From Ophelia neglecta (lineage: Eukaryota), in contig OZ260664.1 in the NCBI GenBank assembly GCA_965285935.1, forward strand, positions 54,932,001 through 54,996,000: 64,000 nt of DNA, given 5' to 3'. Shown in pieces: positions 3,536 to 63,500 of the stretch. Numbering within the stretch: position 1 is the stretch's first letter; every line of letters begins with the position of its first letter. The position numbers are program-made.

Positions 3536-6500
3536 TTACGAATTAATTAATTTTCCTAAAATGAATAACAGAACATTTTTGATAAAGTTAGTTACTAGGT
3601 ATAATATTATAAAATATTATTATGGTTAAAGTTCTAAATGCTGACTGACCTGGTCTGAGGCAGGCCATACTTGACGCCTACTCCTACTCGCGGTAAGGCG
3701 TTGACTACCTTCTTGACGGTGGCATGATCGGGGAAGGCAAACATAACGGCAGCTAAAAACAATTATTTAATCTATAAAAACAGAAGTAGTGCATGTAGCA
3801 GAGGCTTTTCTATTACACCTCTTTCTGTTATTACAGTTAGTTATTACAGTTAGATAAAATATTATGACCATTCAACTGTTATATGAAGATGCCTGATCAA
3901 AGAATATCAAAATGACAACTAAATTCCATTGAAGTAATAAAATCATGCCATTGATATGAATTAACAAGAGGAATATAGTTAAAATAGTCAGTAACTTGTA
4001 GAAAAGATGCTGGCTTCTAACATTTGCTGATGTCAAACACTACTGGCAGTAGTAACTGCCACTATACAGAAAATCCTTTCGCCAGGTGGCGGTACTTACT
4101 TCTGCTGGCCATGAAGATTTCCACGCCAACATTTTGAAGAAGATATCGCCGAGTGAAGATTGCACGGATCTCATTGAAATGCCATTTGCCATGGAGATGG
4201 TCAATATACTGCAACACCTGGAAGAAAACAATAACAAATGAAACGATTTTATAATTATCCTGCAATTCACGTGTTGATTCACACAGTTTATTACGCTGGA
4301 CTAGGCCCAACGGATATAATAGTCAGTCAAAGTGGCAAGCAATTTCACAAAACATATGGGTCAGAAAAGGGAAGATTCAAAACACTCAAATTCAGACTTC
4401 ATCTCAGACGTGTTCACTTTTCGACTAATATATATCGGTAAACTTTTCAGTAAAATTTCATAGCAAAATCTGGTCCTGGTATACATTTTTGGCCAGCTCG
4501 CTCAAAGCTATGTCGAGTAGAGGCCTTCCGATGAGAATATGAACCCCACATCGCGAGTGCATTGAGTAACTTATCTGTTTCTACCTGATCAATCTTTTTC
4601 CCTGCCATGCAAAAGAATTCAGAAGCATGCTGAACATACCCAACATGAAATAGGCTTGGTGATACCAACAAACGGAATATATTTGGGAAAATATGGAGCG
4701 TAGAACTCAGCAGCTCCACTTCTGAATTAGTTATGTAGCTTATTGTAATGTCGGGAAAAAAACAATTATTTGATTCAACTTAATGCCTTATTTGCCTGTT
4801 TTATACAAGACACTTGCCGGTTGGTGTTTGTCCGTCAATCTAACTTTCACACGAGTAGTTTATCTATCACTGACTTCATCTATCGTATGATTTATGGCCA
4901 AGATGTTTGCAATTGTGAGACAATCGTGGTGAAAGTTACACCAATTTGTCTGACATTAACAGATGTGTTACTGCAGGCTTGTCAACAAAAGAAGGCGAAA
5001 CTTCTGTATATGCTAATGAAGAAAATGTGGACCCGACTGAAAATGGGAATAACTGACACATTTGTTAGTAATAATCACCAACTACATTATATTTAGGTTG
5101 GCTCCTAAAACAAAGAAGTCTTTATTGATATTTGAGATGAAAGATGCATGTTCAGAATATTTTTTTTGCAATTGATAAATGACGCAATAATGGTAGATTT
5201 TCTGAGATTTGTTAGAGATGCGTTGACACATGGAGGTCTTGAGGAACAATTACTGCCCCAGGCCACGGCTAGGAAGTACACGGGCTGGGGAGTTCCGTAG
5301 TGGCCTGTACCATCAGGGTGACGGCCTCTAGATGTTCTGCCGGCGACATCGACGATATACATGTAGGCTTATACGGAGAAGTGAAACCGATAATCTTGTA
5401 AGGCATCAATCGAATTTTTAAGAAGTACTTAAAATTTAAATAGGTAAGGACCAGATGATCGCTGTTTTATGGATATCTTGCTGCCTCGAAGGAATTTCAA
5501 ATGTTCATATGAGAGCCTTACAACCTATTTCGACCTCAATCAACAATTTCCCACGTGGCTAAATGAATAAATGGTTGTGCGGCACACGCTGTACCATACA
5601 GAATACAAAATGTACAACATGGCGTACCGGTATGTCGGAATAGTCCGCAATGTAACTGGATTTTGATTTTTTTGGGTGGGGACGGGCGAGGGAGGGGGGG
5701 GGGGTTAACAACGAAGCACCACGTGGGTAATTTTGGTGTCTTTAGTGCACACGCAGGGTGCACCAGTCAATGTTACTGGAGGATTATGCCTACACTTAGG
5801 GATACATCTGACATTGGGAAATACAAATGTAGGACTTTCAAGATTCCCGAGATAAAGAAAAGTTAACTTCATTCAATGCATGGGCAATATTTCAATTATT
5901 TTTTTTAAATATAAACGAATGAGTGTAAAGTTATATGCAATGTAGGCCCAAGAGTATAGGCCTATACGATGGTGCACACTGTCTGGTATTTACAATCATA
6001 ATTTGGGTTGAATATGGCAAAAGCTGGATCTGTGTGCATGCAAATAAAGGAGCTATACGCAGGCGCATAGGAGTACATGTATATAAGCTCAAATACCTAA
6101 TAAGTGATGTATTTAGTATTTTCAAATCGGAGATCCGCCCTTCTCTGGCAGTGTATACCTTAGTCGTAGCTATAACACTATATAAGTCTAGTATATATAC
6201 CTACATGTCACACCTTTATTACAGGTGCTTATTTCGGCACGGGTAATTGACTTTTAAACATGTTTTATTTACCAACTAATGTCGAACATTAATATTAATA
6301 GCAGAATAATTTCAGCTAAATTCACACACAAGAGTAACCTCCACCTACTAACTCGACTGATTGCCACATGAACCACCATATAATTATACATAGCCTCGCT
6401 ACACACCATTTGATGAGAAAGTACGAAAGATCCTAAGAGTTTGACAGTAGAGGTTAAGGGCTTAGCTTTAACAGCCTTTAGCCTAACATATATACAGGTC

Positions 6501-60500: not shown

Positions 60501-63500
60501 AATTACTAGTCCACTATGATTTGCATGGTATTAATTATGTGATTATCTAACCCAGCTAACGAGAGGAGTGAGAAACAGTCTGTCTAATTGTTTAATCTGA
60601 ATAGACAAAAGGCAAGACAACAACAAATGATAACTCTACAGCATGTAAATCTGTGGTTTGAATATCATAGTTTGATGAACACCAGAAGGTGTCTTATTTG
60701 TATGAATCCATCACCAACAGCCACTACAATGGTGACAGAGCCCTGCAATCTGGCAGACTCTGAAGGCATGCAGGGCCCTCAAGAGTTTAACTAATAGGAG
60801 GCCCTGTCAGAGATTGGATCTTTTTCAGTAATTCTTAGATCACCATGAATTTTAAATGCATGTATATTTAAATAGATACATGCCTTTGTCTAGTAATAAA
60901 CAAATTTACTATAAAAAAATCAAATGTCTGAATTCAATACACTGGGACTGTTTGTCTCCTTTGGACTGGTGCCTTAATTTTCAATTCAACTACAGATATC
61001 GTTTTGTAATGTATAACACACGTGTGATTGTCAGTAGCTGTATCATGTCACAGAGATTATAACCCAGACAATACATTGAAACTGACAATCTGCTTTAAGA
61101 ATAAAACAATGCATAGTTTTATCTGTATGATTTATTCTTAATGCATCTTAAAACTCATCCACTCGTCTACTACTATCAATGGTGGCACCCTCTGGCGAAT
61201 ATGTTGCTTTCTATCTGGTTGATGCTACTACTTCAGAATCCTCCCTATAGCTACTACTTCAGAATCCTTCCTGAACTACTAACAGCTTTTGAGTTGGCTC
61301 AGGGTACAGAACACAAGATTCTTTTCAAGCTTAGGCCATGTCAAGTTAATCAGTTCTAGGCATTTTTTTTCTCTCAAGAAAGTGAGGTGAGAGGCTTTTT
61401 CATTTCTCTTAAGGTCAAAAAACAGGTCATCCTTAGTTATTATTTATTTTACACCAGTATCATTAGGTGAGAGCACAGGGTTTTTTCTTTTTTGGCCCAT
61501 GAATTATATAGTGAGGGTTGGAGGAATTTCTTGTTCCACACAAACTATTTTGAGGGGGCTGGTTTTTCTTTTTTGCACAAAGAATACATGGAAATGCTCA
61601 AGCAGATCAAAATAATCGTGTAGTTAGTATTAATAATTTCCCTTTAAGTTGCCATATCCAGTTGGATTGCCTGAAGGCATTTATGACTGTCATATGAAAC
61701 TCTTTATTTTGACATTAACCAGGAAAGTCATCATGCCATTTATTAAATGACTAACACCCAGTTGTCCTTAGAAAAGTAAGAGTAGGTGGTTACACCAAGT
61801 CTGGTGCAGGAAGCGGGCAATATTTTCTACTGTTTGATTTTTATTTGCCCAACCTGGGTCATGCGGATTATTTTTGTTTACACTTTCTTAAGCTGATGAG
61901 GCAGTGGGTGATTTTTTTTAAGCAAAATCATTATAAAAAATATTTCAGTGGCAATTGTGGAAGGAGGCGGGCGCTGCCTGAGTATCAATTTATTAATTTT
62001 AGACAGCCTTAAATAATTATTTGTATATGTCAAGAACCTGCCAAGTATCAAATACTTGAAGACAAACACAGTTATACAGGTCATTATTTGACCAGTGTTT
62101 CACACTGTCGGGACATGATACAGTTTAACACAGTATATAATGTACCTCTGGCTAGGGGGTCACCTTTCTTTTAATTTTTAACATCTGCCTACCACTATGA
62201 CTGAACAAAGAATTTTTTCAAACAGCATATCAACACTAATAATCAAAAGGTGGTGTAAATATCAACAAGTAAGATGTTATACATCTTTTTTTCCTTTAAT
62301 TGTGTTTGATACGAGATGATATATTAATTGTATTATGCAGTCAAAAATATAAAGTAATTCCCCATTACCCTGCGTAAGATATAAAAACCCTACCTTTCTT
62401 AAGGAAAATAAACCTACCTTTGGATCTATTTTCTTATTTTGTTCGTCATCTTCGTCCATTTCGAAGTACATTTCTGTTTTGGTGATGGACATGGTGCCGA
62501 TGACCACGGCTCCGGGAGCTATAAGTTTGGCTGAGGTTGACAGAGCCACAGGGCCGGCTGTAACAGAACATCAATAGTCACATCATTTATAACCTAGTGA
62601 AAGCTTAGCAAGGCATGTTTCTGCTAAGTGTCCTTTGGTAATTTCTTGTTACATGTATTTCTTATATATATTACATTATATAGGGTACATAGGATATTTT
62701 GCATATTTACATGTATGACTTGAAACAACTCCAAAGGTGAACTGGTTCAGGGTGACTTAGATCTATGGTAAGATTTGTTTCTCGTTATGATTCAATGTCA
62801 TTTTATTTTGTGATTTAGTACTATAATAGTGAAAAATAAGGAAGCCCAAAGACATTTTTGAAGACATAAACTCAGAGGAAAGGAGTAAACAAAACAAGTA
62901 GATATCACTAGTAGATCTAGAGTCAGGGTCAGTCACAAGGCTCAGTGCCATTTTCTCTCCCCATTTTGCTACAGAGGGTTTAAAACATGTTTTTTCTATT
63001 GTGCCTGGAATAAACATTACAATCATGGTTTGGAATTATCATACTGCACAGAAAAAAACACAAGAAATTAAGAGAGTTACATAAAAACTAAAAAGGAGAG
63101 CCCCCTCCCCCTCATGTATGTGTGAGTTGCTAATCAAAATAAATGTGACATTAGCAAAATTGATTTATATGGCTGAGCTCTAGACTGAAAATAAACAAAC
63201 AGTGTGACTTGAGGACACAACACTTATAACTCTTTATAAGATACTACTTTACTTAACCATTTAATCAACCTAGTATTATTAAATAAGTGAAGCTACAGTG
63301 ATGACAAAAGCAAAAATTATATTTTTCACATGCAATAATAATATTAATTATTTCAGCATGCATACAAAACTTTCCTGTGTCCTTCTCTTGACCAACACCA
63401 ACTTTTCCGCCTAAAATATTTCAACGGCACATAAACTAACAAGGCAAGAATCACCCTCAATATAAACATGTGAACAGTAGTATACCTTGCCCTTAAAAAT

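What the first reader, a model, noticed from the sequence alone, without database searches (positions are those of the whole stretch)
4218..62417. mab-21 nested antisense in a 58-kb neurobeachin intron: an invertebrate copy of the vertebrate NBEA/LRBA-MAB21L arrangement, resembling a genomic regulatory block
Seen: the intron between KKIDPK and [12 protein letters not shown] is 58,200 bp, while the other nine introns here are 179-1358 bp. It holds a complete mab-21 gene on the opposite strand, with about 24 kb and 31 kb of non-coding DNA on either side and no recognisable transposon ORFs. Established: human MAB21L1 and MAB21L2 are nested antisense in introns of NBEA and LRBA, so the nesting itself is known. 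Inference: the intron is large because it carries long-range mab-21 enhancers, which lock the developmental gene into a bystander host.
Basis: partly seen in the sequence, partly recalled or inferred. Interest (0 to 1): 0.7.

Follow-up and report, generated by a model that had tools for sequence, protein, structure and literature searches.

The report
mab-21 nested in neurobeachin intron
A complete mab-21 developmental gene sits backwards inside one giant intron of a neurobeachin-type gene, an arrangement already described across animals and thought to persist because the intron carries mab-21's control DNA.

Summary
A neurobeachin/LRBA-type gene runs on the minus strand. Its intron between ...KKIDPK and [12 protein letters not shown]... 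is 4218-62417, 58,200 bp, GT-AG, phase 0. The other nine introns are 179-1358 bp. The two flanking exons align to residues 1-46 and 47-85 of the solved human NBEA and LRBA PH-BEACH chains, so no constitutive coding exon is missing.

A complete 359-codon mab-21 gene lies on the plus strand: 28724-29217 and 30114-30699, with one 896-bp intron. It aligns end to end with human MAB21L1.

The rest of the intron shows no Pfam-recognisable ORF, no Rfam or tRNA hit and no dispersed repeat.

The arrangement is not new. Conserved Mab21-in-Nbea/Lrba nesting across metazoans was published in 2007 and 2009, with the same regulatory explanation, and LRBA-intron enhancers of MAB21L2 are shown in vertebrates.

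The enhancer reading could not be tested here. One indirect support is new: about 55 kb (3.25-58.5 kb) keeps its CpGs (o/e 0.79) while the flanking host gene body is CpG-depleted (0.22-0.37).

Verdict: real, ordinary, already known.

The parts
63916..64000 (-). Host gene exon E1. It runs off the window upstream. Its donor is CAA|GTAGGC at 63916, with a weaker alternative at 63886.
62418..62557 (-). Host exon E2 (140 nt), encoding the first half of the PH domain and ending ...KKIDPK.
   Evidence: Aligns to residues 1-46 of PDB chains 1t77 and 1mi1. Matches Pfam PH_BEACH profile positions 1-34.
4218..62417 (-). Host intron, 58,200 bp, GT-AG, phase 0. It contains the whole mab-21 gene.
4100..4217 (-). 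Host exon E3 (118 nt), starting [12 protein letters not shown], encoding the second half of the PH domain.
   Evidence: Query residues 2-39 align to PDB chain residues 48-85. Matches PH_BEACH profile positions 43-78.
3650..3752 (-). Host exon E4 (103 nt).
   Evidence: Aligns to PDB chain residues 87-119.
3242..3470 (-). Host exon E5 (229 nt), the start of the BEACH domain.
   Evidence: Aligns to PDB chain residues 121-196, E 1.5e-38. Matches Pfam Beach profile positions 1-58.
1007..2867 (-). Host exons E6-E10, covering the rest of the BEACH domain: 2727-2867, 2311-2430, 1960-2112, 1304-1471 and 1007-1096.
   Evidence: E6-E9 match Pfam Beach profile positions 60-105, 106-145, 146-195 and 197-251. 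E10 was read only and not searched.
510..693 (-). Host exon E11. The acceptor is clear but the donor is uncertain.
   Evidence: not searched
28724..29217 (+). mab-21 coding exon 1, from the ATG to the donor AG|GTGAGC.
29218..30113 (+). mab-21 intron, 896 bp, phase 2. It splits the Arg codon that matches chain residue 168 of 5eog.
30114..30699 (+). mab-21 coding exon 2, including the stop codon.
3251..58500 (.). CpG-replete domain (o/e 0.79) inside a CpG-depleted host gene body (0.37 on the left, 0.22 on the right). The right edge is sharp and lies 3.9 kb inside the intron. The left edge is loose (2.75-5 kb).
14051..15350 (.). The strongest CpG-island-like patch (GC 0.51, CpG o/e 1.15, 97 CpGs), 13.4 kb upstream of the mab-21 ATG. 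It is a candidate distal regulatory element or alternative promoter; this was not tested.
   Evidence: ORFs here gave no Pfam hit.
27551..28500 (.). CpG-rich patch just upstream of the mab-21 ATG. It is a candidate promoter region; this was not tested.

Best explanation
This is one species' copy of the ancestral animal gene pair in which mab-21 (orthologue of MAB21L1 and MAB21L2) sits antisense inside one intron of the single neurobeachin/LRBA-type gene. The intron splits the PH domain that precedes the BEACH domain.

Shown here: the host splices from 62418 to 4217 across 58.2 kb with nothing missing from the protein, and the intron holds an intact two-exon mab-21 gene and no other recognisable gene or transposon.

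Inferred: the roughly 55 kb around mab-21 is its own regulatory territory, with enhancers spread on both sides of the gene. The host acts as a bystander that cannot be separated from mab-21 without breaking mab-21 regulation or the host itself. On this view the territory has been kept free of the cytosine methylation that marks the host gene body, which would explain why it has kept its CpGs.
For: Anatomy:
- All ten introns are GT-AG. The large one is 58,200 bp against 179-1358 bp for the other nine.
- Exons E2, E3, E4 and E5 map to residues 1-46, 47-85, 87-119 and 121-196 of the human NBEA and LRBA PH-BEACH chains. Residue 47 is placed by register, and residues 86 and 120 are split codons.
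- The mab-21 exons map to residues 5-167 and 169-362 of human MAB21L1.
- Pfam gives PH_BEACH, Beach, Mab-21 and Mab-21_C, exon by exon.

The rest of the intron is empty of known features:
- 207 of 209 ORFs of at least 65 aa have no Pfam match at E 0.01 or better apart from the 2 mab-21 exon ORFs, and the 2 weak hits are at chance level.
- Rfam gives 0 hits at gathering score and 0 at E up to 0.5. There are 0 tRNAs.
- Self-blastn gives 5 non-self matches, all within two tandem arrays.

Composition:
- CpG o/e is 0.794 in 3251-58500 (1960 observed, 2467 expected). It is 0.366 in 1-3250 (38 observed, 103.7 expected) and 0.218 in 58501-64000 (37 observed, 169.6 expected).
- The GpC control is flat (0.95-1.09).
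- TpG+CpA is raised in the flanks (1.29 and 1.28 against 1.12).
- Comparing 55 inner with 8 outer 1-kb windows gives Mann-Whitney p = 5e-10.
- The depleted stretch 58.5-62.4 kb is purely intronic, so the depletion is not a coding effect.

Literature:
- The nesting is conserved among the metazoans studied except Drosophila (PMC1784063, passages).
- It is kept throughout Metazoa except some insects, with enhancers in the Lrba intron (PMC3786989 citing Tsang 2009, passage).
[quoted passage not shown] Deleting LRBA-intron elements upstream of MAB21L2 causes eye defects in fish and frog while lrba loss alone does not (PMC11511899, introduction and passages).
- MAB21L2 is listed as a GRB target (PMC2745767, passage).
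- Long introns in the bystander are a stated GRB prediction (PMC3514665, passages).
Against: - Nothing here shows an enhancer. No related animal genome was available, so there is no conservation track, and there are no chromatin or contact data.
- CpG retention is an indirect proxy for lack of germline methylation, and only 8.75 kb of host flank is in view. The left boundary is poorly resolved (2.75-5 kb), and one inner 1-kb window (0.519) falls below the highest outer window (0.524).
- A 64-kb window cannot detect transposon families whose other copies lie elsewhere in the genome, so 'repeat-poor' covers only ORF-bearing and intra-window repeats.
- Mid-size ORFs are somewhat more numerous than in dinucleotide-preserving shuffles, and this is unexplained. 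At 65 aa or more there are 199 against 145-155 (0 of 100 shuffles reach it). At 100 aa or more there are 34 against 20.5-24.8 (0 and 7 of 100). At 130 aa or more there are 3 against 4-5, which is no excess.
- PMC3342880 (passage) cautions that conserved nesting need not reflect selection on dispersed regulatory elements.
Confidence: 0.6

Rival explanations
1. Passive retention. The nesting persists because any rearrangement with a breakpoint in the intron would destroy the essential host gene, so mab-21 cannot easily leave. The intron is long mainly because it must hold a gene with its proximal promoter and ordinary spacer, not because of long-range enhancers.
For: PMC3342880 (passage) argues that conserved nesting need not reflect selection on dispersed regulatory elements. 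No enhancer is shown in this window. The host protein is highly constrained: E5 is identical to human LRBA at 57 of 76 residues (my count from the alignment).
Against: mab-21 with a 1-2 kb promoter needs about 4 kb, not 58 kb, while the other nine introns are at most 1.4 kb. The extra DNA is not made of recognisable transposons or repeats. The CpG-replete domain sets the interval apart from the host body. In vertebrates the intronic elements are functionally required (PMC11511899).
Confidence: 0.2
2. The intron is inflated by decayed or non-autonomous mobile elements, or by lineage-specific neutral expansion, with no regulatory meaning.
For: There is a modest excess of 65-130 aa ORFs over dinucleotide shuffles, which could be relics of old coding sequence. 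Non-autonomous elements with copies elsewhere in the genome cannot be seen in one window.
Against: No Pfam transposon domain in any of the 209 ORFs. Self-blastn finds no dispersed repeat and the repeat finder finds no inverted-repeat pairs. CpG is retained, whereas in many animals with mosaic methylation transposons are methylation targets and would be CpG-depleted (the abstract of PMC11292947, seen in the listing, says this holds in some species).
Confidence: 0.1
3. The intron also carries host-gene or other functions. Examples are an internal promoter for a short PH-BEACH-WD40 isoform of the host, or an unannotated non-coding RNA starting at the CpG-island-like patch at 14.05-15.35 kb. These would account for part of its size and its CpG-rich state.
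For: Human NBEA has two isoforms with different transcription start sites (PMC10557686, legend of Fig. 2). From recall only, a short C-terminal NBEA isoform begins near the exon that follows the MAB21L1-bearing intron. The window has island-like patches far from mab-21.
Against: No ORF, Rfam family or splice-supported exon was found in the intron. Exon E3 begins at a strong acceptor and has no in-frame start codon at its beginning. No transcript data were available.
Confidence: 0.1

Closest known systems
Mab21-Lrba/Nbea conserved nested gene pair (Tsang et al. 2009, Genomics 94:177; DANGER D6 synteny, PMC1784063)
   Same: A mab-21 orthologue lies wholly inside one intron of the NBEA/LRBA-type gene, on the opposite strand, with unrelated functions. 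The host intron lies at the start of the PH-BEACH region, as the vertebrate data imply.
   Different: There is a single pre-duplication-like pair: each host exon scores about equally against human NBEA and LRBA. mab-21 has one intron, whereas the vertebrate and Nematostella coding sequences are uninterrupted (PMC1784063). The intron is 58 kb, against the several hundred kb implied for human LRBA by the 113.5-kb deletion plus its 19-kb distance (PMC11511899).
Genomic regulatory blocks with a bystander gene (Kikuta 2007; Irimia 2012, PMC3514665), e.g. Isl-Scaper and Otx-Ehbp1
   Same: A developmental target gene is linked to an unrelated, intron-rich bystander, and a very long bystander intron is one of the stated predictions.
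   Different: Here the target is inside the bystander rather than beside it. Conserved elements and enhancer activity, the defining evidence, were not tested. The pair is not named in the main text of PMC3514665, and its supplementary lists could not be opened.
Human LRBA-intron enhancers of MAB21L2 (elements Ma-Me; CE1-15, CE14 bound by Otx2; PMC11511899)
   Same: Non-coding DNA upstream of mab-21, inside the host gene, on the side of the PH/BEACH exons.
   Different: Those are experimentally shown vertebrate elements. No sequence comparison with them was made here, and deep non-coding conservation down to invertebrates is not reported in what I read.

Membership tests
Mab21-Nbea/Lrba nested gene pair | The host is a neurobeachin/LRBA-type BEACH protein | tested here: met
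   Exons searched one by one hit only chains 1t77 (LRBA) and 1mi1 (NBEA), with E from 1e-10 to 1e-38 and contiguous residues 1-196. Pfam gives PH_BEACH and Beach in exon order.
Mab21-Nbea/Lrba nested gene pair | The guest is an intact mab-21 (MAB21L1/L2) orthologue | tested here: met
   359 codons. The two exons align to 5eog residues 5-167 and 169-362 with E 2.7e-88 and 6.4e-102. Pfam gives Mab-21 and Mab-21_C.
Mab21-Nbea/Lrba nested gene pair | The guest lies wholly inside one host intron, on the opposite strand | tested here: met
   The intron is 4218-62417 on the minus strand and mab-21 is 28724-30699 on the plus strand. There is no residue gap at the host exon junction.
Mab21-Nbea/Lrba nested gene pair | The host intron is the same (homologous) intron as in vertebrates | tested here: inconclusive
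   Four observations are consistent with homology.
- Window exons E3-E5 total 450 nt = 150 codons, running from mid-PH into BEACH. This matches the 150-aa, 4-exon in-frame LRBA loss just upstream of MAB21L2 that partly removes the PH and BEACH domains (PMC11511899).
- The zebrafish lrba exon-40 guide printed in that paper reads in frame as the end of the E3 homologue (my reading by eye).
- A breakpoint in intron 41 of 58-exon NBEA, upstream of MAB21L1, gives a transcript spliced into MAB21L1, which I read as placing MAB21L1 in that intron (PMC10557686).
- No table of human exon boundaries was available, so the identity of the intron is not proven.
Genomic regulatory block | A developmental target gene plus a functionally unrelated bystander | tested here: met
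   The roles come from the literature: MAB21L2 in eye and brain development and LRBA in vesicle traffic and immunity (PMC11511899).
Genomic regulatory block | [quoted passage not shown] | tested here: met
   58,200 bp against 179-1358 bp for the other nine introns.
Genomic regulatory block | Clusters of conserved non-coding elements in the bystander intron | not testable with these tools
Genomic regulatory block | Enhancers in the bystander that act on the target promoter | not testable with these tools
   This needs reporter assays and chromatin contact data in the source species.

The most novel reading that the evidence does not exclude
The roughly 55-kb CpG-replete block (3.25-58.5 kb) may be a long-standing methylation-free regulatory domain of mab-21. 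It would be maintained inside an intron that the host's own transcription crosses, with a sharp edge 3.9 kb inside the intron that ignores the exon-intron structure. If so, this locus would be a compact invertebrate case in which transcription-coupled gene-body methylation is excluded from a nested developmental gene's territory. It would also be a pre-duplication model of the NBEA/MAB21L1 and LRBA/MAB21L2 regulatory blocks at about one tenth of the vertebrate size.
Probability: 0.4. Interest if true: 0.45.

Novelty: already known. Interest (0 to 1): 0.25.

Why it matters
The finding shows that the scan correctly recovered a deeply conserved host-guest gene pair from raw sequence, but the pair and its regulatory explanation are in print. 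Its practical value is as a small model of loci that matter in human disease: MAB21L1 and MAB21L2 in eye malformations, NBEA in neurodevelopmental disorder and LRBA in immune deficiency. At 58 kb against hundreds of kb in vertebrates, and with a single copy, the whole putative regulatory territory could be dissected. The CpG step gives a cheap, testable prediction of where that territory begins and ends.

Tried and rejected
- Transposon or other genes in the intron: a Pfam scan of all 209 stop-to-stop ORFs of at least 65 aa found only mab-21 and two chance-level hits.
- Structured RNAs: Rfam gave 0 hits at gathering score and 0 at E up to 0.5. There were 0 tRNAs.
- Dispersed or inverted repeats: none. 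Only tandem arrays appeared, at 21254-21516, 32300-32487 and 39682-39773, plus short ones.
- Hidden coding potential by ORF counts: mononucleotide shuffles overstated the excess. Dinucleotide shuffles leave a modest excess of mid-size ORFs and none of long ones. I treat this as compositional and unexplained, not as evidence of a gene.
- Tsang et al. 2009, the key paper, is not held, so I relied on its title and on citing passages.
- The main text of Irimia et al. 2012 does not name Nbea, Lrba or neurobeachin. Its supplementary pair lists are closed.
- One literature search for invertebrate mab-21/neurobeachin introns returned nothing relevant. One search for hypomethylated nested genes in invertebrates gave only general background.
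- I did not name the source organism. No open tool holds animal genomes.
- No structure prediction, complex prediction or atlas search was run, because both proteins belong to well-known families.
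Full report
**What is there**

The window has no N. Its GC content is 0.35-0.37 at both ends and 0.38-0.50 in between. A neurobeachin/LRBA-type gene runs on the minus strand. Stop-to-stop frames and splice-site positions give eleven exons and ten GT-AG introns.

The intron between the exon ending ...KKIDPK (last base 62418, donor AAG|GTAGGT) and the exon beginning [12 protein letters not shown] (first base 4217, acceptor TTCTTCCAG|GTG) spans 4218-62417. 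That is 58,200 bp in phase 0. The other nine introns are 1358, 347, 179, 374, 296, 198, 488, 207 and 313 bp. The first would be 1328 bp with a weaker alternative donor.

**How the spliced models were searched**

No full-length search, fold or identity figure was therefore made for either gene.

**Nothing is missing at the big junction**

- Exon E2 (62418-62555 in frame) aligns to residues 1-46 of the solved PH-BEACH chains of human LRBA (1t77, E 4.2e-13) and NBEA (1mi1, E 4.6e-12).
- Residues 2-39 of exon E3 align to chain residues 48-85, which places its first residue at 47.
- E4 aligns to 87-119 and E5 to 121-196, with residues 86 and 120 as split codons.
- Pfam, exon by exon, gives PH_BEACH profile positions 1-34 and 43-78. 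It then gives Beach positions 1-58, 60-105, 106-145, 146-195 and 197-251.

No constitutive coding exon can be hidden in the 58 kb without inserting residues into a PH domain that is colinear with both human paralogues. Alternative or non-coding exons are not excluded. Each exon scores about equally against NBEA and LRBA, as expected for a gene that predates the vertebrate duplication.

**The guest gene**

On the plus strand an ATG at 28724 opens exon 1, which ends at 29217 (donor AG|GTGAGC). After an 896-bp phase-2 intron, the acceptor TTTCAG|G opens exon 2 at 30114, which runs to the stop codon ending at 30699. The total is 359 codons.

Exon 1 aligns to residues 5-167 of human MAB21L1 (5eog, E 2.7e-88) and exon 2 to residues 169-362 (E 6.4e-102). 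Residue 168 is the split codon. Pfam finds Mab-21 and Mab-21_C. The gene is complete and antisense to its host. It has 24.5 kb of intron on its 5' side and 31.7 kb on its 3' side.

I do not take the window for human sequence. mab-21 here has an intron, whereas vertebrate mab-21 coding sequences are uninterrupted (PMC1784063), and both proteins differ from the human ones.

**The rest of the intron**

- Of 209 stop-to-stop ORFs of at least 65 aa within 4218-62417, only the two mab-21 exon ORFs match Pfam convincingly.
- Two others give E 0.0032 and 0.0054, which is chance level for about a hundred queries each.
- No transposon domain appears.
- Rfam finds nothing at gathering score or at E up to 0.5, and there are no tRNAs.
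- A self-comparison by blastn gives 5 non-self matches, all inside two tandem arrays. The repeat finder finds no inverted repeats and only one weak two-copy direct match outside the tandem arrays.

The ORF counts leave a loose end. Against dinucleotide-preserving block shuffles, ORFs of at least 65 aa number 199 against 145-155 (0 of 100 shuffles reach that). ORFs of at least 100 aa number 34 against 20.5-24.8 (0 and 7 of 100). ORFs of at least 130 aa number 3 against 4-5, which is no excess. I read this as fine-scale compositional structure, but it is not explained.

**A compositional step that supports a separate domain**

CpG observed/expected in 1-kb windows is 0.11-0.37 from 59 to 64 kb and 0.24-0.52 from 1 to 3 kb. 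Almost everywhere in between it is 0.47-1.10. A three-segment fit on 250-bp bins puts the boundaries at about 3250 and 58500:

| Segment | CpG observed / expected | CpG o/e | GpC control | TpG+CpA o/e |
|---|---|---|---|---|
| 1-3250 | 38 / 103.7 | 0.366 | 0.95 | 1.29 |
| 3251-58500 | 1960 / 2467 | 0.794 | 1.08 | 1.12 |
| 58501-64000 | 37 / 169.6 | 0.218 | 1.09 | 1.28 |

The raised TpG+CpA in the flanks is the signature of deaminated methyl-cytosine. Comparing 55 inner with 8 outer 1-kb windows gives Mann-Whitney p = 5e-10, with one overlapping pair (0.519 against 0.524).

The right boundary is sharp and lies 3.9 kb inside the intron, in purely non-coding DNA. It is therefore neither a coding effect nor tied to the exon-intron structure. 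The left boundary is loose (2.75-5 kb).

From established knowledge of mosaic methylation in invertebrates, gene bodies of steadily expressed genes are methylated (abstract of PMC11292947 in the listing) and developmental genes are not (recalled). On that basis I infer that the host body has been germline-methylated and that the 55 kb around mab-21 has not. This is an inference from composition, with only 8.75 kb of flank in view.

Island-like patches inside the domain include 14051-15350 (GC 0.51, o/e 1.15) and 27551-28500, just upstream of the mab-21 ATG.

**What is already known**

- PMC1784063 (2007; passages read, legend of its Fig. S10) states that mab-21 family genes are in conserved synteny in all metazoan taxa studied except Drosophila. 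It places MAB21L1 in an NBEA intron and MAB21L2 in an LRBA intron.
- Tsang et al. [quoted passage not shown] Citing passages say that the host-nested organisation is kept throughout metazoan genomes except some insects. They also say that enhancer conservation was shown in the Lrba intron (PMC3786989), and that dispersed regulatory elements under selection are the assumed cause (PMC3342880).
- PMC11511899 (introduction and passages) reports that four of five elements shared by mouse Mab21l1 and Mab21l2 drive tissue-specific reporters. It also reports that a 113.5-kb deletion 19 kb upstream of MAB21L2 inside LRBA causes eye defects when modelled in fish and frog, while lrba truncation alone does not.
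- MAB21L2 is named as a GRB target in PMC2745767.

Both the invertebrate nesting and the regulatory-block reading are therefore in print.

**Is it the same intron as in vertebrates?**

I could not see human exon tables, so this is not proven. Three published facts fit.

- The human deletion upstream of MAB21L2 removes 4 LRBA exons, a 150-aa in-frame loss that partly removes the PH and BEACH domains. In the window, the three exons on the same side of mab-21 (E3-E5) total 450 nt, or 150 codons, covering chain residues 47-196 from mid-PH into BEACH.
- The zebrafish lrba exon-40 guide printed in that paper reads in frame as the end of the E3 homologue (my reading by eye).
- A translocation breakpoint lies in intron 41 of 58-exon NBEA and upstream of MAB21L1. 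It gives a PDK3 transcript spliced into MAB21L1, with both genes read in the same direction (PMC10557686, passages). I read that as placing MAB21L1 in that intron and, by my working out of the der(13) geometry, antisense to NBEA.

**Mechanism and rivals**

I commit to the regulatory-block reading at about 0.6. The ancestral pair is kept because mab-21's enhancers are spread through the host intron, and the intron's size and CpG state reflect that territory.

- Passive retention, in which breakpoints would kill the host, gets about 0.2.
- Neutral or transposon inflation gets about 0.1.
- Additional host functions, such as an internal promoter, get about 0.1. Human NBEA has two start sites (legend in PMC10557686). 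A short C-terminal isoform starting near this position is recall only.

That the locus is the orthologous nested pair I hold at about 0.95.

**What stayed unchecked**

- Conservation of the intron in related genomes.
- Chromatin, methylation and transcript data.
- The species.
- Human exon boundaries.
- The full text of Tsang 2009.
- The supplementary pair lists of Irimia 2012 and the supplementary figure of the 2007 paper (supplements are closed).

**Verdict**

The kind of arrangement is already known. The only new element is the CpG-replete domain, which is a testable prediction rather than a result.

Noticed in passing
window 3251-58500 against 1-3250 and 58501-64000: There is a step in CpG observed/expected (0.79 against 0.37 and 0.22) with a flat GpC control. 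The right edge is sharp and lies 3.9 kb inside the big intron. It reads like an unmethylated domain embedded in a methylated host gene body.
   Followed up: yes
window 14051-15350: A 1.3-kb CpG-island-like patch (GC 0.51, o/e 1.15, 97 CpGs) lies 13.4 kb upstream of mab-21. Long ORFs on both strands here have no Pfam match. It may be a distal promoter or enhancer.
   Followed up: partly
window 32300-32487: About five copies of a 37-bp tandem repeat (87% matches) lie 1.6 kb downstream of the mab-21 stop. This is beyond the first AATAAA at 31600 and close to an ATTAAA at 32459.
   Followed up: no
window 21254-21516: A degenerate CCTTCA/CCTTAAA-type minisatellite of about 260 bp (periods 6, 13, 26 and 87) sits on the upstream side of mab-21.
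   Followed up: no
window 4218-28690 and 30700-62417: There is a modest excess of 65-130 aa stop-free frames over dinucleotide-preserving shuffles (199 against about 150; 34 against about 21-25), with no excess of longer ones and no Pfam hits. This is unexplained.
   Followed up: partly
window 28700-28726: A pyrimidine-rich run ending in AG sits directly before the mab-21 ATG (…ttcttccaag|ATG). It could be the acceptor of a 5' UTR intron, which would place the true transcription start further upstream.
   Followed up: no
window 1-64000, + strand: AT skew on the plus strand is positive almost throughout (0.03-0.06 by segment, up to 0.13 locally). This fits a T-rich sense strand of a gene transcribed on the minus strand across the whole interval.
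   Followed up: partly
window 13388-13426 and 39682-39773: There is a C-rich tract (17-bp period, 2.3 copies) and a 21-bp repeat of 4.3 copies. These are minor low-complexity features of unknown meaning.
   Followed up: no
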